NCBI GenBank assembly: GCA_043810165.1
Contig: JBDROJ010000042.1
Location: forward strand, 1-58,235
Reading direction: 5' to 3'
DNA: 58,235 bases
Origin: a bacterium
GTDB taxonomy: Bacteria; Patescibacteriota; Patescibacteriia; Magasanikbacterales; GWA2-37-8
The notes under the pieces: generated by a model
The model's input: the letters and a program-made list of their open reading frames with translations, nothing else
Told to the model about the DNA's origin: nothing
Databases searched by the model: none
Shown: positions 222 through 55,046 of the stretch, piece after piece
Layout of the letters: each line of letters opens with the position of its first letter
How positions within the stretch are numbered: the stretch's first letter is position 1
Program-made: the position numbers and the translations under genes

Positions 222-2972
222 ATGTTTAAAGAACTTTCTAAAGCTTACGAGCCAGAACAATATGAAGATGATATTTATGAACGCTGGGAACAGAGCGGAT
301 TTTTTAATCCGGATATTTGTGTTAAAAAAGGGATTTGTGAGCAAGATGCCGATCCTTTTTCCATTGTTTTACCTCCGCCTAATACCACCGGGCAATTGCA
401 TATTGGTCATTCAGTAATGTTAGCAATTGAAGATATAATGATACGCTACCATCGTATGAAGGGAGATAGAACTCTGTGGATACCAGGCACCGATCACGCT
501 GCTATTGCCACTAATGCAGTGGTAGAGCGTCAGTTGTCCAAAGAAGGTAAAACCAAATACGATTTAGGCAGAGAAAAATACATAGAAAAGGTAAAAAAAT
601 ATATCTCTGATTCACAAGATACCATGAGAGGGCAGATACGCAAGATGGGAGCTAGTTTGGATTGGTCGCGCGAAGCTTATACTTGGGATGACCAGCGTGG
701 CTTGGCTGTAAACACCATGTTTAAAAAAATGTATGATGATGAATTGATTTACCGTGGTAATCGCATTGTTAATTGGTGTCCACATTGTCATTCCACTTTG
801 GCTGATGATGAAGTTGAACACAAACAGGAAAACGGGAAGTTTTATTGGATTAAATATGGTCCTTTTGTTTTGGCCACGGCACGACCAGAAACAAAATTAG
901 GTGATACGGCAGTAGCAGTTCATCCTGACGATGAACGATACAAAGATATGGTCGGTAAAAAATATATGATTCCAGGTGTGCTGGGTGAATTTGAAATTGT
1001 GGTAGTGGCTGATGAAGCAGTTGATCCAGAATTTGGTTCAGGCGCAGTTAAAGTAACTCCCAGTCACAGTTTTACTGATAATGAGATTGCCCAACGTCAC
1101 GGTATTGGTGGTAAACAAGTAATTAACGAAGACGGCTGTATGATGGAAAATTGTGGCAAATATGCTGGTATGAACACAAAGGAGGCGCGTGAAGCCATTA
1201 CAGCTGATATGCAGGAGATGGGCTTGATTGATCATATTGAAGAAGATTACAAACACAATTTGTCTATTTGTTATCGTTGTAAGCATGTGATTGAACCAAT
1301 TCCGTCTAAACAGTGGTTTGTAGATGTGAATAAGGAATTTGATTTTTTACAATCCAAAGAACATCCAATCCAAGGTTTAGACAATGGTCAAAAAATTAGT
1401 TTAAAGAAATTAATGCAATATGTTGTACATAGTCAGCAAATTGAAATCATTCCAGATAGGTTTTGTAAAACATATTTTCATTGGATAGACAATTTGCGTG
1501 ATTGGTGTATCTCGCGTCAAATATGGGTAGGCCATCGTATTCCGGTTTGGTATAAAGGTGGAGAAACTTATGTCGGGGTAGAGCCACCTGTCGGAGAGGA
1601 ATGGATACAAGATCCAGATACTTTGGATACTTGGTTTAGTTCTGGGATGTGGACTTTTTCTACATTAGGCTGGCCCGCCACAGCTAACGATTTAAAAATT
1701 TATCACCCCACCAATGTTTTGGAGACGATGTTTGACATTTTATTTTTTTGGGTAGCGCGAATGATAATGATGTCTGCTTATGCTCTTGGAGAAGTGCCAT
1801 TTAAGACTGTTTACCTACATGCGCGAGTTTTGGATAGAGATGGTGAAAAAATGAGTAAATCAAAACCCGAGACCATGATTGACCCTCTGGATGTCTGTCA
1901 GAAATATGGCACTGATGCCGTACGATTATCACTGTTATTAGGAGTGTCTCCTGGTTCGGATGTTAGTTTGTCAGTGGAAAAAATACAAGGTTTTCGTAAT
2001 TTTGCTAATAAATTGTGGAATATTAGTCGATTTATGTTGATGAATATTGACCAGTCAGAGATAGGTGCGGATGTGCCAAAAGCAAAAACTCTATCTGACC
2101 AATGGATTTTGAGTCGATTGAATCAAGTAGTTTTGAAATGTACTGAAAATATAGAGAAATATGAATTTTCTCAAGCCGGAGAGATGTTAAAAGAATTTAC
2201 TTGGAATGATCTGGCTGATTGGTATTTGGAAATTGCCAAAGTTGAGGGTGATAAATCTAAAATTTTAAACCATGCTTTGAATACGATTTTGAAATTATGG
2301 CATCCGTTTATGCCGTTTGTAACCGAAACTATCTGGTCAGAGGTTTACGGTAAGGAAAAAATGTTGATGGTACAGAAATGGCCTGCCACTGTCATTGCGA
2401 GCGAAGCGAAACAACCTAATCCTGTCATTGCGAGCGAAGCGAAACAACCTAATCCTGTCATTGCGAGCGAAGCGAAACAACCTAATCCTGTCATTGCGAG
2501 CGAAGCGAAGCAATCTCGCGACGATTTTGAATTAATCAAAAATATTGTCACCCAAATCCGCCACGTACGAGCGGAAAATGGCATTGAACCAGGTAAAAAG
2601 ACCAATGTTTTGATTAGTGCTGGAGATTCCAAAAAAGTTCTAGAAGAAAATTCTGAAATTATCAAGCGTTTGTGGACCGGAATTGACAAATTAGAAGTTA
2701 AAACTAAAGCCGATAATCCTGGTGGTTGGTTTCCGATAGCACTTGGCGATGTAGAGATATTTGTTGATCTGTCTGGTGCAGTTGATATTGATAAAATTAA
2801 AAAAGAATTAGCCGAAACTGAAAAATACGTTAAAATTTTAGAAAAGAAATTAACTAATCAGGAATTTGTTAAAAATGCTCCGAAACAAGTAGTGTCCAAA
2901 GAACAGGAAAAATTAGATCAGGCTAAGGAAAAATCAACCAAATTAACAACCCAATTAGAAAATTTAAAATAA
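222..2972 (+). CDS. valS: Valine--tRNA ligase with in-frame repeat insertion
   Basis: PPPNTTGQLHIGH and KMSKS class I motifs, DWCISRQ, C-terminal coiled coil ending FVKNAPKQVV; VIASEAKQPNP repeat after the KWP motif. Confidence 0.97.
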   Translation: MFKELSKAYEPEQYEDDIYERWEQSGFFNPDICVKKGICEQDADPFSIVLPPPNTTGQLHIGHSVMLAIEDIMIRYHRMKGDRTLWIPGTDHAAIATNAVVERQLSKEGKTKYDLGREKYIEKVKKYISDSQDTMRGQIRKMGASLDWSREAYTWDDQRGLAVNTMFKKMYDDELIYRGNRIVNWCPHCHSTLADDEVEHKQENGKFYWIKYGPFVLATARPETKLGDTAVAVHPDDERYKDMVGKKYMIPGVLGEFEIVVVADEAVDPEFGSGAVKVTPSHSFTDNEIAQRHGIGGKQVINEDGCMMENCGKYAGMNTKEAREAITADMQEMGLIDHIEEDYKHNLSICYRCKHVIEPIPSKQWFVDVNKEFDFLQSKEHPIQGLDNGQKISLKKLMQYVVHSQQIEIIPDRFCKTYFHWIDNLRDWCISRQIWVGHRIPVWYKGGETYVGVEPPVGEEWIQDPDTLDTWFSSGMWTFSTLGWPATANDLKIYHPTNVLETMFDILFFWVARMIMMSAYALGEVPFKTVYLHARVLDRDGEKMSKSKPETMIDPLDVCQKYGTDAVRLSLLLGVSPGSDVSLSVEKIQGFRNFANKLWNISRFMLMNIDQSEIGADVPKAKTLSDQWILSRLNQVVLKCTENIEKYEFSQAGEMLKEFTWNDLADWYLEIAKVEGDKSKILNHALNTILKLWHPFMPFVTETIWSEVYGKEKMLMVQKWPATVIASEAKQPNPVIASEAKQPNPVIASEAKQPNPVIASEAKQSRDDFELIKNIVTQIRHVRAENGIEPGKKTNVLISAGDSKKVLEENSEIIKRLWTGIDKLEVKTKADNPGGWFPIALGDVEIFVDLSGAVDIDKIKKELAETEKYVKILEKKLTNQEFVKNAPKQVVSKEQEKLDQAKEKSTKLTTQLENLK
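2389..2516 (+). repeat. In-frame 33-nt tandem repeat (3 identical units + 1 variant) related to the intergenic palindromic element
   Basis: GTCATTGCGAGCGAAGCGAAACAACCTAATCCT starts at 2391, 2424, 2457; fourth unit GTCATTGCGAGCGAAGCGAAGCAATCT at 2490-2516. Confidence 0.97.
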
Positions 2973-2977
2973 ATTTT

Positions 2978-4168
2978 ATGCCAGTTAGTACTGACGAACA
3001 AAAAATACAAGAATTTTTAACTCGCGGAGTTGAAGCTGTGTATCCTGGTGAAGAGGAGTTAAAAAAATTACTCATGTCTGGTCAGCGTTTACGAGTTTAT
3101 CAAGGTTTTGATCCAACTGGTCCGTATTTGCATATTGGCCATGCCATGGGTATTCGGGCTTTGAGAATTCTGCAAGAGCTCGGTCATGAGGTGATTTTCC
3201 TAGTAGGTGATTTTACAGCCGCTATTGGCGATCCTGATAAAGGCACAACCAGAGAGATGCTTGGTGAAGAGCAGATTCAAAAAAATATGCAAGGCTGGAA
3301 AGAGCAAGCCGGGCAGTTAATCGATTTTGATGGAGAGAACGCTGTACAGTTTAAGAGAAATTCAGATTGGTTAGGAAAATTAAATTTAAAAGATGTTTTA
3401 CAATTAATGTCAAAAACAACGGTTCAAAGAATATTGGAGCGCGATTTATTTGATCGCAGATTAAAGGCAGAAGATCCAATCCGTTTTCATGAGATGTTTT
3501 ATCCCTTGTTGCAGGGATATGACGGGGTTGAGATGAAAGTTGATATTGAGATTGGTGGAGCTGACCAAACATTCAATATGTTGATGGGGCGTACTTTGTC
3601 CAAGGCATATTTAAATAAAGAAAAATTTGTTAGAGTCAATAAGATGATGGACGCTCCAGAAGGCAAGACCATGAGCAAAACCAAAGGTAACGGCATAAAT
3701 TTGTCAGATAGTCCAGAAGATATGTATGGTAAAGCCATGTCATACCCGGATAGTGCAATTCTAAGTGGTCTTGAACTGTTAACAGGGGTTTCTTTGTTAG
3801 AGATTGAGGAGATTAAAAAAGAAATGGACGGCGGTGCTAATCCAATGGAATTTAAAAAGAGGATGGCTTTTGAGATAGTTAAAATAATTAAAGGTGAATC
3901 GTCTGCTAAAAAAGGCCAAGAACATTTTGTCTCGGTAATCCAAAGCAAAGATCAGCCTGATGAGATTGCAGAGATCAAACCTAGTGCTTATAATATTGTT
4001 ACGATTTTAATTGAATCTAAATTAGCAACTAGCACTTCTGATGCTCGTCGTGCTATTAAACAGGGCGGTGTTAAAGTGAATGATGGAAAAATAGACGATA
4101 TAAAATTTGTATTAAAGCCCGGAGATATAGTGCAAAAAGGTAAAAGGTTTTTTGTCAAAATTATTTAA
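2978..4168 (+). CDS. tyrS: Tyrosine--tRNA ligase
   Basis: YQGFDPT..LHIGH, YPLLQGYD, GGADQ, KMSKS variant TMSKT, C-terminal S4-like domain (DARRAIKQGGV...GKR). Confidence 0.96.
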   Translation: MPVSTDEQKIQEFLTRGVEAVYPGEEELKKLLMSGQRLRVYQGFDPTGPYLHIGHAMGIRALRILQELGHEVIFLVGDFTAAIGDPDKGTTREMLGEEQIQKNMQGWKEQAGQLIDFDGENAVQFKRNSDWLGKLNLKDVLQLMSKTTVQRILERDLFDRRLKAEDPIRFHEMFYPLLQGYDGVEMKVDIEIGGADQTFNMLMGRTLSKAYLNKEKFVRVNKMMDAPEGKTMSKTKGNGINLSDSPEDMYGKAMSYPDSAILSGLELLTGVSLLEIEEIKKEMDGGANPMEFKKRMAFEIVKIIKGESSAKKGQEHFVSVIQSKDQPDEIAEIKPSAYNIVTILIESKLATSTSDARRAIKQGGVKVNDGKIDDIKFVLKPGDIVQKGKRFFVKII

Positions 4169-11323: not shown

Positions 11324-11406
11324 GTCGGAGTGGTGAAATTGGTATACACGCTACCTTGAGGTGGTAGTCCCCACTGGGGTTGGAGGTTCGAGTCCTCTCT
11401 CCGGCA
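11324..11406 (+). tRNA. tRNA-Leu(GAG), CCA not encoded
   Basis: Acceptor GTCGGAG/CTCCGGC+A, D-loop AATTGGTA, anticodon arm CTACC-TTGAGGT-GGTAG, long variable arm CCCCACTGGGG, T-arm GGAGGTTCGAGTCCTCT. Confidence 0.95.
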
Positions 11407-40751: not shown

Positions 40752-42416
40752 ATGAAATTAAGTGACTACGTTGTTAAATTCATTGAAGAACAGACTAACT
40801 CTATTTTTTTGTTGTCCGGAGGAGGTATAATGCATCTGGTTGATTCGGTGGGAAAATCAAATTTGAATTCATATTGTTGTCATCATGAGCAAACTGTGGC
40901 AATAGCAACTGAAGGTTATTCACGCATTAAAACTGATGGCATCGGAGTTTGCTTGGTCACTACCGGCCCGGGTGGAACTAACGCCATTACCGGAGTAGCC
41001 GGCGCCTGGCTAGATAGTATACCTATGTTAGTTATTAGCGGACAGGTAAAAAGAGATAATATTATACCGCGCAATAGCAATGGCAAGCCATTAATTCGCC
41101 AATTAGGTTTTCAAGAACTTAATGTGATAGACATGGTAAAACCAATTACAAAGTACGCGGTTATGGTAGAAAACGAAAATGAAATTAAATATCATTTAGA
41201 AAAAGCTATTTACCTAGCCAAAGATGGGCGTCCTGGTCCGGTGTGGATTGAGATACCATTAGATGTCCAAGCAACTGAAATTGATCCAGATAGTTTAAGA
41301 TCATTTGAAAAACCAATCCAAGAGCAACAGAACGATATCCCCATGAACGAGGTAATACAAGCTTTGAATCAGGCACAAAGGCCTCTTTTGATTGCCGGTA
41401 ATGGCATTAGATTAGCTGGCGGAGAAGAAATTTTATGGAAGATGTTAGATAAAATTAAAATCAACACGGTCACGCCAATTTTTACAGCCGATGATTTAGT
41501 AACTCATGAATACTCATATTACCTAGGACGACAAGGAATGCCTGGTAACAAATCGGCTAATTATGCGGTTGATAATTGTGATTTGTTATTAGTGATAGGC
41601 GAAAGAATGCAATTAACACAAACATCCTATGATTATGAAAATTTTGCGCCACAATCTAAAAAAATAATGGTTGATATTGATCTAGAAGAGATGAAGAAAA
41701 AAACTTTTTTACCAGACATAGCTATTAATTGCGATGCCAAAGTTTTTTTAGAAAAATTGAATGAACAAGATATTAATTTGAGTCGTTGGGATTTGCAAGT
41801 AGAAGACATTGATACAGAAAAATATTCATGCGACCCTGGATTTGTAAACGTGTATAAATTTTTAGAGGAATTAGGTAAACACAGTCAAGGGTATCATGTG
41901 GCCACGGCCAATGGTACAGCTAGTTTGGCACCGCATCAAGCTTTGAAAATAATTAGAGGTCAGCGTTTTCTTACCAATGCTGGTTTGGGACATATGGGTT
42001 CTGGTTTGCCTTTGGCCATTGGTGCTTGTGTAGCTGATGGTAAAAAATCGGTAATATGCAGTGAAGGTGACGGTTCAATCATGCTTAATTTGCAAGACTT
42101 GCAAACGGTACTACATCATGGTTTGCCTTTGAAAATTTTTATTTATAATAATAATGGCTATCATTCAATCCGCAGTACGCATATGACTTATTTTGACAAT
42201 GTCTTTGCAGCTGATCCGGAAAGCGGTGTAAGTATTCCTGATTTTAGTAAGATCATTCCGGCTTGGGGATTAAAATATGAAAGAATAAATAACGACAGCG
42301 AACTGGACAAAGTTAGACAAGTTATGGAAACAAGTGGACCAATAGTTTGTGAACTGATGATAGATCCTGACCAAAAGATGATTTCCAAATGGAGTGCTGG
42401 GGTTTTGAAAGAGTAA
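40752..42416 (+). CDS. ThDP-dependent acetolactate-synthase-like enzyme (YerE-like)
   Basis: GGGIMHL, HHEQ, TTGPGGTN, GFQE, RPGPVWIEIPLD, GDGS..NN. Confidence 0.88.
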   Translation: MKLSDYVVKFIEEQTNSIFLLSGGGIMHLVDSVGKSNLNSYCCHHEQTVAIATEGYSRIKTDGIGVCLVTTGPGGTNAITGVAGAWLDSIPMLVISGQVKRDNIIPRNSNGKPLIRQLGFQELNVIDMVKPITKYAVMVENENEIKYHLEKAIYLAKDGRPGPVWIEIPLDVQATEIDPDSLRSFEKPIQEQQNDIPMNEVIQALNQAQRPLLIAGNGIRLAGGEEILWKMLDKIKINTVTPIFTADDLVTHEYSYYLGRQGMPGNKSANYAVDNCDLLLVIGERMQLTQTSYDYENFAPQSKKIMVDIDLEEMKKKTFLPDIAINCDAKVFLEKLNEQDINLSRWDLQVEDIDTEKYSCDPGFVNVYKFLEELGKHSQGYHVATANGTASLAPHQALKIIRGQRFLTNAGLGHMGSGLPLAIGACVADGKKSVICSEGDGSIMLNLQDLQTVLHHGLPLKIFIYNNNGYHSIRSTHMTYFDNVFAADPESGVSIPDFSKIIPAWGLKYERINNDSELDKVRQVMETSGPIVCELMIDPDQKMISKWSAGVLKE

Positions 42417-42637
42417 TAAATTAGTTCTGTCACTGCGAACGTAGCGTTTTCTGTCATTGCGAGGAGCGAGGCGTTTTCTGTCATTGCGAGCGTAAGCGAA
42501 GCAATCTCGTCATCTCTAGAGCAACGAGATTGCCACGTCGTCGCTCCGCTCCTCGCTCGCAATGACAGAAATGCCACGCTCGCAATGACAGAAACAACAC
42601 ATTCTTCGCTTACGCTCGCATTGACAGAACTAATTTA
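42417..42637. repeat. Nested palindromic REP/BIME-like element
   Basis: Perfect 16-bp terminal IR TAAATTAGTTCTGTCA/TGACAGAACTAATTTA; three forward CTGTCAYTGCGA and three reverse CGCAWTGACAG units; inner stem GCAATCTCGT/ACGAGATTGC. Confidence 0.93.
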
Positions 42638-52938: not shown

Positions 52939-53712
52939 ATGACACCAATTATTAGCATAATGACAATAACACATAACAGGGCTAATCATATAGCCTGGGC
53001 AATTGCCAGCGTTAGATCCCAAAGTCTGACTGATTGGGAATTGATTATTATAGATGATGCTTCAACTGACGATACCAAGGCCGTGGTACAAGAATTTTTA
53101 AATCAGGATCAGCGTATTAGATATATAAAAAATGAAAAGAATTTAGGCATATCAAATTCTAGAAATCTCGCATTAGAAAAAGCACGAGGTCAATTTATAG
53201 CTGTGCTGGACAGTGATGATATTTGGTGTTATAATGAAAAATTACAGAAACAGTATGATTTTTTAAGTCAAAATCCGGAGTATGTATTAGTTGGCGGAGG
53301 AGTTATCCAAATAGATGAACAAGGAGTTGAAAGGAAACGATATCTAAATCCCTGTAAAGACAGTACCATCCGTAAGAAATTTTTAGCAAAAAATCCATTC
53401 GCTCATTCTAGTGTGATGTACTCGAGAAATCTAGCTTTGGAGCTGGGTGGCTATAAGAAAGAATTAGGCATAGGTGAAGATTATGATTTGTGGTTGAGAA
53501 TGGGGAAGAAAGGGAAGTTGGCTAATCTGAACGATTATTTACTCAAATACAGAATTCACTCAGACGGCACTTGTTTTAAAGATTTGATTAAAGCTTTAAA
53601 AAATAACATCAAGATAATTAAGAAATATAGAAAAGATTATCCAAACTATTTTTTTGCATTTTTAAGAAGGTGGTCAAGATTATTAGTAGGCTATATATTT
53701 TTAAGAAAATGA
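52939..53712 (+). CDS. Glycosyltransferase family 2
   Basis: IIDDASTD, SRN, LDSDD, HSSV, EDYDLWLR. Confidence 0.92.
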   Translation: MTPIISIMTITHNRANHIAWAIASVRSQSLTDWELIIIDDASTDDTKAVVQEFLNQDQRIRYIKNEKNLGISNSRNLALEKARGQFIAVLDSDDIWCYNEKLQKQYDFLSQNPEYVLVGGGVIQIDEQGVERKRYLNPCKDSTIRKKFLAKNPFAHSSVMYSRNLALELGGYKKELGIGEDYDLWLRMGKKGKLANLNDYLLKYRIHSDGTCFKDLIKALKNNIKIIKKYRKDYPNYFFAFLRRWSRLLVGYIFLRK

Positions 53713-54818
53713 AAATACTATATCTAGTTACAAAATCAGAAGCTGGTGGGGCGCAGACTCATGTATATCAATTGAGTCGTTATTTTGTTAACAAAGGGAA
53801 CCAGGTAGCTATTATGGCAAGCCCGGGAGGTTGGCTACAAGAGCAGGCTAAAAAAATAGGGGTGAATTTTATGCCCAATGTTTTTTTTAGCAATACATTA
53901 AACCCGATTGGTGTTGTAAAAGCTTTTTTCAAAATTAAAAGAGCTATTAATTGTTTTAAGCCTGATATTGTCCACTGTCATAGTTCAGTAGCAGGTTTTT
54001 TAGGTAGATTGGCTGTTAGGAATAAGATTCCCACGATTTTTACTGCCCATGGCTGGGGTTTTAATCTAGGCGTGCCTTGGTGGCAGAAAAAAGTAGCGAT
54101 TGTGGCTGAAAAAATGGCATCCAGATATTGTTGTCAGATTGTTTGTGTGTGTGATTTTGTCAAACAACTAGCCTTAAAATACAAGGTAGCTCGGGAAGAT
54201 AAAACGGTGGTTATATATAATGGAATAGAGCCAGTTGGAGCAGAACAACCAAGCCATAAATCAGGTAAATTTAAAATTGTCTTTATAGGTAGGCTAGCCA
54301 AACCCAAATTACCAATTTTGTTATTAGAAGCTTTTAATGATCTACCAACAGAGTTGAAAGACCAGAGTGAACTATTGATTATAGGAGATGGTCCTCAAAA
54401 AGAAAGCCTAGAACAGTTCTCTAATCAGAAAAATTTAAAACAGGTACAGTTGGCTGGTGATTTGTCTAGAGAAGAAATTTTTGCCACATTACAACAATCT
54501 AATATTTTTGTCTTTCTTTCGCAGTGGGAAGGCCTGCCATATACAATTTTAGAAGCCATGAGAGCTGGTCTGCCGGTTATTGCTTCAGATGTCGGTGGAG
54601 TAAAAGAAATGGTCAGCCAAAGAAATGGAATATTGATTAAAGATAATAAAAAAGAAGTAGTCACCAGGGCTTTGAGGATATTATTAGAAGATAGACAAAT
54701 GATAGAAGTAATGGGTAAACAGTCAATTACGTCCATTAATGAAAAGTTTGCTCTTAACCAGATGTTAAAAAAAGTTGAAATTTTATATAATAGATTTGTA
54801 TCAGGTTTTTTGGATTAA
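53709..54818 (+). CDS. Glycosyltransferase family 4
   Basis: GGAQ, HSSVAG, TAHG, YNGI, GRL, EGLPYTILEAM..DVGG; ATG 53709 overlaps upstream TGA. Confidence 0.92.
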   Translation: MKILYLVTKSEAGGAQTHVYQLSRYFVNKGNQVAIMASPGGWLQEQAKKIGVNFMPNVFFSNTLNPIGVVKAFFKIKRAINCFKPDIVHCHSSVAGFLGRLAVRNKIPTIFTAHGWGFNLGVPWWQKKVAIVAEKMASRYCCQIVCVCDFVKQLALKYKVAREDKTVVIYNGIEPVGAEQPSHKSGKFKIVFIGRLAKPKLPILLLEAFNDLPTELKDQSELLIIGDGPQKESLEQFSNQKNLKQVQLAGDLSREEIFATLQQSNIFVFLSQWEGLPYTILEAMRAGLPVIASDVGGVKEMVSQRNGILIKDNKKEVVTRALRILLEDRQMIEVMGKQSITSINEKFALNQMLKKVEILYNRFVSGFLD

Positions 54819-54820
54819 TT

Positions 54821-54971
54821 TGTCATTGCGAGCGTGGCGTTTCTGTCATTGCGAGCGAAGTGTTCGTGTCATTGCGAGCGTAAGCGAAGCAATCTCGTTG
54901 GTTCTAGAACAACGAGATTGCTTCGTCGCTACGCTCCTCGCAATGACAGAAACGCCACGCTCGCAATGACA
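54821..54971. repeat. Nested palindromic REP/BIME-like element (second intergenic copy)
   Basis: Perfect 35-bp terminal IR (54821-54855 / 54937-54971); inner 16-bp IR CGAAGCAATCTCGTTG/CAACGAGATTGCTTCG. Confidence 0.95.
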
Positions 54972-55046
54972 GGCTAAACTAGGGCATAATCTAATTCATT
55001 CAGAAATAGAAAATTTTGTTTTCTATTTCGCTCATTTCATTCGTTT

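What the first reader, a model, noticed from the sequence alone, without database searches (positions are those of the whole stretch)
2389..2516. A palindromic DNA repeat has entered the essential valS gene in frame and amplified into a peptide array
Seen: four units encode VIASEAKQPNP x3 + VIASEAKQS, about 42 extra residues right after the KWP motif. The fourth unit (GTCATTGCGAGCGAAGCGAAGCAATCT) differs by one base from the core of both intergenic palindromes (GTCATTGCGAGCGTAAGCGAAGCAATCT), and that missing T makes it a whole number of codons. In the three amplified units GCAATCT reads ACAACCT: one synonymous change (AAG>AAA) and one S>P change, which together break the ATTGC/GCAAT stem. Established: Rickettsia palindromic elements insert in frame into exposed loops of housekeeping proteins. 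Inference: an analogous process in a probable CPR organism, with tandem expansion creating a variable-length linker in a tRNA synthetase.
Basis: partly seen in the sequence, partly recalled or inferred. Interest (0 to 1): 0.85.

Follow-up and report, generated by a model that had tools for sequence, protein, structure and literature searches.

The report
Selfish palindrome repeat inside ValRS linker
A small selfish DNA repeat that litters this tiny bacterial genome sits in frame inside the essential valine-tRNA synthetase gene as four tandem copies, adding a floppy 42-residue stretch at a loop between two domains, much as palindromic repeats do in Rickettsia proteins.

Summary
Window 2389-2513 is a 33-bp tandem repeat of 3.8 copies inside an intact 916-aa valS ORF. 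It encodes VIASEAKQPNP x3 plus VIASEAKQS straight after KWP.

The unit is the left arm of a palindromic element that has burst in this about 1 Mb Patescibacteria-like genome. There are 174 core hits in 76 loci here, against at most 28 in 40 relatives and at most 15 in 300 phylum genomes.

The same family lies in frame in seven further genes with Pfam domains around the insert: LeuRS, a UvrD/PcrA-like helicase, GuaA, TruB, a MiaB-like enzyme, a SucD-like protein and ComEC. This matches the Rickettsia palindromic element (RPE) pattern.

AlphaFold2 models ValRS well (pLDDT 89) except residues 727-755, which are the amplified units.

- The "missing T" variant occurs in 12 other copies, so it is not a valS adaptation.
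- Intergenic copies show the same "three identical short units plus canonical core" arrays.
- The same ValRS linker carries related units in other lineages, so it is a hotspot.
- The 26-nt arm is found exactly in many bacterial phyla.

Copy number and length variability could not be checked, because no reads were available. Verdict: a new variant of a known kind.

The parts
222..2972 (+). valS, valine-tRNA ligase, 916 aa, intact ORF. It is the only ValRS match in the genome.
   Evidence: Pfam finds tRNA-synt_1 (E 2e-115), Anticodon_1 and Val_tRNA-synt_C. The best solved structure is 1gax, E 4e-172. The other G000 matches to this protein that one search lists are 26-30% identical paralogs.
2391..2489 (+). 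Three identical 33-bp units (2391-2423, 2424-2456, 2457-2489), each encoding VIASEAKQPNP (aa 724-756). The distal part of each differs from the canonical arm, so the ATTGC/GCAAT stem is lost.
   Evidence: Sequence and coordinates are. The tail AACAACCTAATCC occurs exactly only here in the genome; the sole other hits carry one mismatch. AlphaFold2 pLDDT is below 50 for residues 727-755.
2490..2518 (+). Fourth unit, a canonical T-less left arm GTCATTGCGAGCGAAGCGAAGCAATCTCG encoding VIASEAKQSR. No right arm follows it.
   Evidence: Sequence is. The same T-less core occurs in 12 other copies. The unit is modelled as the N-terminal extension of helix 756-785.
42418..42637 (.). Intergenic nested palindromic element of the same family. 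It starts 2 nt after the stop codon of ORF 40752-42416.
   Evidence: Sequence is, ORFs, core hits. No Rfam family matches it.
54822..54972 (.). Intergenic nested palindromic element of the same family. It starts 4 nt after the stop codon of ORF 53670-54818.
   Evidence: Sequence is, ORFs. The RNA fold gives -110.4 kcal/mol, z -14.9.

Best explanation
A non-autonomous palindromic repeat, REP- or MITE-like and behaving like the Rickettsia palindromic elements, has proliferated in this Patescibacteria-like genome. One left arm of about 29 nt lies in frame in the surface linker of ValRS. This linker joins the helical anticodon-binding domain to the C-terminal junction and coiled-coil part. An upstream copy of the arm that had lost its short stem was then amplified to three identical 33-bp units. 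The likeliest mechanism is slipped-strand mispairing or unequal recombination, the same process that builds period-23 arrays at intergenic copies.

The insert has no inverted partner, so it forms no strong hairpin. It is translated as about 33 disordered residues, and the last unit extends the next helix. It is tolerated because this linker varies in length and is permissive. No function is required: it is selfish or neutral DNA surviving where selection allows.

Shown: the family relationship, the in-frame position, the absence from the nearest relatives, the predicted disorder, and parallel in-frame copies in other housekeeping genes.

Inferred: the order of events, the slippage mechanism, actual translation, and neutrality.
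For: Repeat and frame.

Family size:
- 174 hits of the 13-mer (up to 1 mismatch) lie in 76 clusters on 26 of 47 contigs.
- 271 hits of the 11-mer lie in 93 clusters.
- The genome has 205 GTCATTGCGAG and 0 GTCATTCCGAG.

Burst specific to this genome:
- 40 relatives hold 0-28 hits each, and the two same-genus genomes hold 4 and 15.
- 47 of 300 other phylum genomes hold the exact 13-mer, at most 15 per genome, against 124 here.

Insertion status:
- None of 29 relatives' ValRS has the array or the VIASEAKQ unit.
- The linker segment is 62 aa here. In 120 homologs the median is 29 and the range 25-62.

Other in-frame copies with Pfam domains around them:
- LeuRS, a UvrD-like helicase, ComEC (two sites), a MiaB-like enzyme, a SucD-like protein and GuaA, and TruB.
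- The GuaA insert is a complete 75-nt palindrome missing from 3 of 3 orthologs found, including the same-genus one.

Array-building as a family habit: perfect period-22 or period-23 runs of 62-90 nt precede a canonical core at C1, C3, C7 and twice on C19.

Structure:
- AlphaFold2 mean pLDDT is 89.3 and the only segment below 50 is 727-755.
- The mRNA of the array is less structured than shuffles (z +2.5), against z -14.9 for an intergenic copy.

Precedent: RPEs sit in frame in many Rickettsia genes (review PMC10969869, passages). R. bellii has 526 RPEs, 53 of them in genes (PMC1458961, passage).
Against: - No reads could be laid, so the number of units, population variability and even in situ amplification are unverified.
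- Run lengths of the arrays (81-90 nt at period 22-23, 121 nt at period 33) could partly reflect assembler k-mer limits. I found no single k that fits all of them (my reasoning).
- No mobilising enzyme was found. Y1/RAYT, IS110, TnpB and DDE_Tnp_1 gave 0 hits, and only two rve fragments appeared, in a genome 93% complete.
- No target-site duplication is evident.
- Translation is inferred from the intact single-copy ORF only.
- A half element rather than a full palindrome needs an extra step: loss of the right arm, or mobility of single arms.
- The closest ValRS homolog in the 5.8-billion-protein database is only 77% identical; same-genus G001 in the genome search is 75%. The empty site cannot be compared at DNA level.
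Confidence: 0.78

Rival explanations
1. The element is really in valS, but the four-unit array is an assembly artefact. The true locus would have one unit, or a different and possibly larger number, because three identical 33-bp units cannot be counted by short k-mers.
For: Units 1-3 are identical and the perfect run is 121 nt. Four of the five intergenic arrays reach a similar 3.6-3.9 copies, which is what a collapsed cycle could look like. The genome is a 47-contig draft. No run was listed to check this.
Against: The array is shorter than a typical 150-nt read and could be spanned. One intergenic array has only 2.7 copies, and an unrelated period-30 run reaches 131 nt. No single k-mer cap explains all the runs (my reasoning). 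Units 1-3 differ from unit 4 at fixed positions, so at least two distinct units must exist.
Confidence: 0.15
2. The unit was not newly inserted in this lineage. An old repeat-derived unit already sat in the ancestral linker and has been kept in step with each genome's own repeat variant by gene conversion. Only the amplification would be recent.
For: G019, G014 and G039 carry a single left arm at the same codon position and in the same orientation. It is the ATTCC...GGAAT variant that dominates the hits in those genomes: 7 of 7 listed in G019 and 9 of 15 listed in G014. G000 carries ATTGC...GCAAT, and its genome has 0 ATTCC cores. Linkers ending in ..EESL occur in several homologs (P0003, P0096, G002).
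Against: The two nearest ValRS, P0002 (77%) and same-genus G001 (75%), show no trace of a unit. On a 120-sequence tree with the linker columns removed, the 11 unit-bearing rows need at least 8-9 changes, close to the shuffled mean of 10.7. Some units are read in another frame (CHSE.. in P0008, CHPE.. in P0068), which cannot be the same event.
Confidence: 0.2
3. The array is an adaptive module. A lengthened flexible tether would change how the C-terminal tRNA-binding arm reaches tRNA-Val, or would recruit a partner, and it was selected for that reason.
For: It sits at the hinge before the C-terminal domain and coiled coil. The amplified units carry proline-rich, disorder-favouring changes. Several homologs also have long linkers of 51-61 aa.
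Against: The identical units imply a very recent origin. The same element sits in unrelated proteins in all three reading frames, and the same array architecture occurs between genes. This fits a passive process. No conservation of the array exists: a search with residues 716-775 found only the query itself among 5856 candidates.
Confidence: 0.07

Closest known systems
Rickettsia palindromic elements (RPEs)
   Same: Both are short palindromic selfish repeats present in many copies in a small genome, with roughly a tenth of loci inside genes. Here that is 9-10 of 76 clusters; in R. bellii it is 53 of 526 (PMC1458961 passage). Both are inserted in frame into unrelated housekeeping proteins at permissive surface positions (PMC10969869 passages).
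   Different: The phylum differs (Patescibacteria). The element is shorter: a core palindrome of about 75 nt against the ~150 bp the review gives for RPEs first reported in R. conorii (PMC10969869 passages). The valS copy is a single arm amplified in tandem. The arm sequence is shared exactly with many other phyla. Sequence relatedness to RPE consensus sequences was not tested, because no RPE sequences were available to me.
REP/BIME elements mobilised by RAYT (Y1) transposases
   Same: Both are imperfect palindromes of a few tens of nt, mostly just downstream of stop codons, often in clusters with alternating orientation, and forming very stable hairpins.
   Different: No Y1_Tnp/RAYT gene was found in the genome. 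REPs are by definition extragenic, whereas these also sit in frame in genes.
MITEs with intragenic, in-frame copies (ERIC and others, as listed in the 2024 MITE review)
   Same: Both are small non-autonomous inverted-repeat elements that can create in-frame fusions with host ORFs (PMC10969869 passages).
   Different: No target-site duplication and no parent insertion sequence were recognisable here. No tandem in-frame amplification of a half element appears in the review passages I read.

Membership tests
Valyl-tRNA synthetase (class Ia) | Class I catalytic core with HIGH and KMSKS motifs, anticodon-binding helical domain and ValRS C-terminal tRNA-binding arm | tested here: met
   Pfam finds tRNA-synt_1, Anticodon_1 and Val_tRNA-synt_C. 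The best solved structure is 1gax, E 4e-172, covering 4-910. LHIGHS and KMSKS are visible in the translation.
Rickettsia palindromic elements | Palindromic repeat present in many copies and inserted in frame in unrelated protein genes | tested here: met
   There are 76 clusters. Copies lie in frame in ValRS, LeuRS, a UvrD-like helicase, GuaA, TruB, a MiaB-like enzyme, a SucD-like protein and ComEC.
Rickettsia palindromic elements | Sequence similarity to one of the described RPE families; occurrence in Rickettsia | not tested
   No RPE consensus was available; the Genome Research 2002 paper is not held. The exact arm does occur in two uncultured Rickettsiales records (L090, L091), but that is not a test against RPE families.
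REP/BIME with RAYT | A cognate Y1 (RAYT) transposase gene in the genome | tested here: not met
   PF01797 gave 0 matches in G000, which is 93% complete, while the control genomes rang.
REP/BIME with RAYT | Extragenic palindromes clustered in inverted orientation near the 3' ends of genes | tested here: met
   The architectures +-, ++-- and +-- dominate. Both elements in the window begin 2-4 nt after a stop codon.
MITE | Terminal inverted repeats with flanking target-site duplication | tested here: inconclusive
   The inverted termini extend outward to TAAATTAG..CT, but the flanks are inverted complements and no direct duplications are apparent.
MITE | A related autonomous insertion sequence supplying the transposase | tested here: not met
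   IS110, TnpB and DDE_Tnp_1 gave 0 hits, and only two rve fragments were found, not next to elements. The draft genome may lack unassembled insertion sequences.

The most novel reading that the evidence does not exclude
A palindromic element family whose 26-nt arm is identical across many bacterial phyla repeatedly enters, or converts, one specific inter-domain linker of the essential ValRS in Patescibacteria. The intragenic unit tracks each genome's own repeat variant, including the compensatory ATTGC/GCAAT versus ATTCC/GGAAT stem change. It can amplify in frame into a hypervariable disordered tether. On this reading, essential translation enzymes of ultra-small bacteria would be actively remodelled by concerted evolution with selfish DNA, not just passively tolerating it.
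Probability: 0.25. Interest if true: 0.8.

Novelty: new variant of a known kind. Interest (0 to 1): 0.62.

Why it matters
In-frame colonisation of housekeeping proteins by palindromic repeats is textbook only for Rickettsia. The 2024 MITE review still calls a similar process in other prokaryotes "conceivable".

This case has four features that make it useful:
- It is a clear second case, in an unrelated reduced-genome lineage.
- The genome is caught in a burst of the element.
- An essential aminoacyl-tRNA synthetase linker has been hit repeatedly in related lineages.
- Tandem amplification turns a DNA repeat into a peptide repeat.

The case gives a concrete system for asking two questions: how selfish DNA creates disordered linkers, and why one short arm sequence is shared by so many phyla.

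Tried and rejected
Steps that led nowhere:
- Reads: the look-up of sequencing runs listed none for window 1900-3000, so read laying was not used and the unit count is unverified.
- Peptide array elsewhere: a search with residues 716-775 gave only the query at E up to 0.01 among 5856 candidates of 503-1603 aa.
- Rfam: the only gathering-score hit in the window was a tRNA, and nothing matched the element at E up to 1.
- Pfam on ORFs that run through the elements found nothing meaningful.
- Plasmid collection: 6 records held weak matches, none with annotated features.
- Literature: four searches with peptide or DNA strings of the element gave 0, 92 (of which the 20 listed are irrelevant, apparently primer matches), 0 and 2 irrelevant papers. 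Keyword searches returned no paper describing this element. I therefore found no printed description in the held library. Subscription journals and supplements were not searchable.
- The Genome Research 2002 RPE paper is not held.

Ideas considered and rejected:
- DNA target preference for TGGCC near the element. In 400 class genomes, 31 matched the junction pattern, against about 11 for the reversed control. Only 1 of 31 matches found in the 30 loci returned (G477, L175) lay in ValRS. Seven listed matches had no locus of their own. A permissive linker, not this motif, explains the hotspot.
- An intron, an intein or a pseudogene. The frame is open, the flanks align to homologs on both sides, and it is the only ValRS in the genome.
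- The repeat family deriving from valS. The arm is pan-bacterial.

The tree labels were set by a regular expression on the linker. One of them (P0073) may be spurious. No rows were dropped.
Full report
What is there. Window 2389-2513 is a tandem repeat of period 33 with 3.8 copies and 98% matches. A perfect period-33 run of 121 nt spans 2389-2509. It lies inside the ORF 222-2972 on the + strand. That ORF is a complete valyl-tRNA synthetase. Pfam finds tRNA-synt_1, Anticodon_1 and Val_tRNA-synt_C, and the best solved relative is T. thermophilus ValRS, 1gax, at E 4e-172. The protein reads KWP(719-721)-AT-[VIASEAKQPNP]x3 (724-756)-VIASEAKQSR(757-766)-DDFELIKNI. Against 1gax the match breaks at query 722 and resumes at 764, while the Thermus chain advances only from 707 to 714. 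The array is therefore extra sequence between the helical anticodon-binding domain and the C-terminal part. G000 holds no second ValRS: the other matches to this protein that one search lists are 26-30% identical paralogs.

The repeat family. The 13-mer that starts each unit occurs 12 times in the window, against 0.00 expected. It occurs 174 times at up to 1 mismatch in the 1.0 Mb, 47-contig, 37% GC genome, in 76 clusters on 26 contigs. With an 11-mer the counts are 271 hits in 93 clusters. The canonical copy is a palindrome of about 75 nt. The left arm is GTCATTGCGAGCG(T)AAGCGAAGCAATCTCG.., followed by a short loop and the inverted arm. Shorter arms are often nested around it, and the inverted termini often extend outward. 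The two copies in the window begin 2 and 4 nt after stop codons. One of them folds at -110.4 kcal/mol, z -14.9. No Rfam family matches the element.

A burst in this genome. Forty relatives hold 0-28 hits each, and the two same-genus genomes hold 4 and 15. Of 300 other genomes of the phylum, 47 hold the exact 13-mer, at most 15 per genome, against 124 here.

No mobilising enzyme found. The Pfam families Y1_Tnp (RAYT), IS110, TnpB and DDE_Tnp_1 gave no hit. Two rve fragments were the only transposase-like matches, in an assembly 93% complete. The enzyme that moves the element is unknown.

The element outside CPR. The records include Bradyrhizobium and other Alphaproteobacteria, Bacteroidales, Chloroflexota, Legionellales and Coxiellaceae, a cyanobacterium, Planctomycetota and Omnitrophota. 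Typically the layout is arm, variable loop, inverted arm. I found no paper that prints this sequence.

Is it an insertion? None of the 29 relatives' ValRS carries the array or the VIASEAKQ unit, and most have about 9-12 residues between KWP and the conserved ..DFELIKNI.. helix. The same-genus G001, 75% identical, shows no trace of the unit. Among the 120 closest ValRS in a 5.8-billion-protein collection, the segment from MVxKWP to ..IVT is 62 residues here. The median is 29 and the range 25-62. The best of those homologs is 77% identical, and their names point to Magasanikbacteria or Patescibacteria. A search with residues 716-775 found only the query itself.

The process is genome-wide. Copies lie in frame, with Pfam domains on both sides or around them, in the following genes:
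- LeuRS, in the editing domain, as two tandem arms
- a UvrD/PcrA-like helicase
- ComEC, at two sites
- a MiaB-like radical-SAM enzyme
- a SucD-like CoA ligase subunit
- GuaA
- TruB

A Wzy_C ligase is a further probable case. All three forward reading frames of the arm are used: VIAS.., SLRAKR.. and HCER... For GuaA the insert is a complete 75-nt palindrome, and it is missing from all three orthologs found, including the same-genus one. About 9-10 of 76 clusters lie inside genes. R. bellii has a similar share, 53 of 526 (PMC1458961 passage).

How the array compares with the family.
- Unit 4 (2490-2518) is a canonical arm without the T that both window palindromes have. The same T-less core occurs in 12 other copies, several of them intergenic. 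It is a subfamily variant, not a frame-restoring deletion.
- Units 1-3 are identical to each other. They differ from unit 4 in the distal part: AAG CAA TCT CG. becomes AAA CAA CCT AA. This removes the ATTGC/GCAAT stem. Their tail occurs exactly nowhere else in the genome; the only other hits carry one mismatch.
- The layout "three identical short units, then one canonical core" is not peculiar to valS. Perfect period-23 runs of 82, 88 and 90 nt (3.6-3.9 copies) and a period-22 run of 81 nt precede cores at four intergenic loci, and a fifth has 2.7 copies.

Amplification of the 5' subunit is thus a habit of the family. Inside a gene, only a period divisible by three can survive. There is no right arm, so the valS array is less structured as RNA than shuffled sequence (z +2.5).

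Structure. AlphaFold2, run with a 100-sequence alignment, gives mean pLDDT 89.3 and pTM 0.84. The only segment below 50 is 727-755, which covers units 1-3. Unit 4 joins helix 756-785. The array is best read as a disordered extension of an inter-domain linker. I did not compute its distance from the tRNA.

A hotspot. G019 and G014 carry one left arm at the same codon position and in the same orientation. It is the ATTCC...GGAAT variant typical of those genomes. G039 carries a third variant there. G000 has no ATTCC core at all. Among the 119 database homologs, ten more carry unit-like peptides at this site. Examples are VIPTGAEES, VIARRPKADAAIQ and VIARNGATKQS, and some are read in another frame (CHSELVSES). 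On a FastTree of 120 sequences with the linker columns removed, the 11 labelled rows need at least 8-9 changes, close to the shuffled mean of 10.7. This points to repeated independent hits or fast decay. In G002, which genome search places in the same genus, ValRS has a different in-frame composite element in the loop before the anticodon-binding domain. A junction-pattern scan of 400 class genomes found only one further ValRS case, G477. The hotspot is therefore concentrated in this lineage and is better explained by a permissive linker than by a DNA target motif.

Limits. No sequencing run was listed. The unit count, any length polymorphism and in situ amplification are therefore inferred. 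Translation is inferred from the open single-copy frame. Relatedness to RPE families was not tested.

Verdict. This is a new variant of a known kind: RPE-like in-frame colonisation of housekeeping genes in a Patescibacteria genome, with tandem in-frame amplification at a recurrent ValRS linker site.

Noticed in passing
L042-L121 (genome-contig loci): The exact 26/27-nt arm of this element occurs in Alphaproteobacteria, Bacteroidales, Chloroflexota, Legionellales, Cyanobacteria, Planctomycetota and Omnitrophota. The arms are conserved and the central loop varies. I found no description of it in print.
   Followed up: partly
L003 = G000:C13:34545-37610: The LeuRS ORF (1022 aa) carries an alpha/beta-hydrolase domain (Abhydrolase_1, aa 482-603, E 1e-10) inside the synthetase. 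It also has two tandem in-frame repeat arms in the editing domain.
   Followed up: no
P0002, P0026, P0028, P0084, P0025: Several close ValRS homologs are 1054-1205 aa long and carry an extra His_Phos_1 (PF00300) or Ser_hydrolase (PF06821) domain in their precomputed Pfam lists.
   Followed up: no
L171 = G002:C35:5500-7114: The ValRS of genome G002, which genome search places in the same genus, has a different in-frame composite element (SVIASEATRPP...PRDDK) in the loop before the anticodon-binding domain. Its KWP linker ends in ..NEESL, like a decayed unit.
   Followed up: partly
L031 (G022), P0102, P0034, P0046, P0067: Other ValRS linkers at the same site hold peptides that look like translations of other repeat families, for example ..PFDKLRAGS....PSVKGGRGGV.. 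and ..PLAKGE... No DNA check was done.
   Followed up: no
G000:C2:1447-1504 and C2:13876-13925: A second, unrelated short palindromic repeat (unit containing ATCCCGACTTAGTCGGGA) forms perfect period-21 arrays.
   Followed up: no
G000:C19:59775-59905: A perfect period-30 tandem repeat of 4.4 copies, lysine-rich if translated, unrelated to the palindromic family.
   Followed up: no
window 11324-11406: A tRNA gene of 83 nt is the only Rfam gathering-score hit in the window.
   Followed up: no
L169, L170 (G000:C30:19306-19536; C23:13599-13778): Two short rve (integrase core) matches in open frames of 196 and 191 aa are the only transposase-like hits found in the genome.
   Followed up: no
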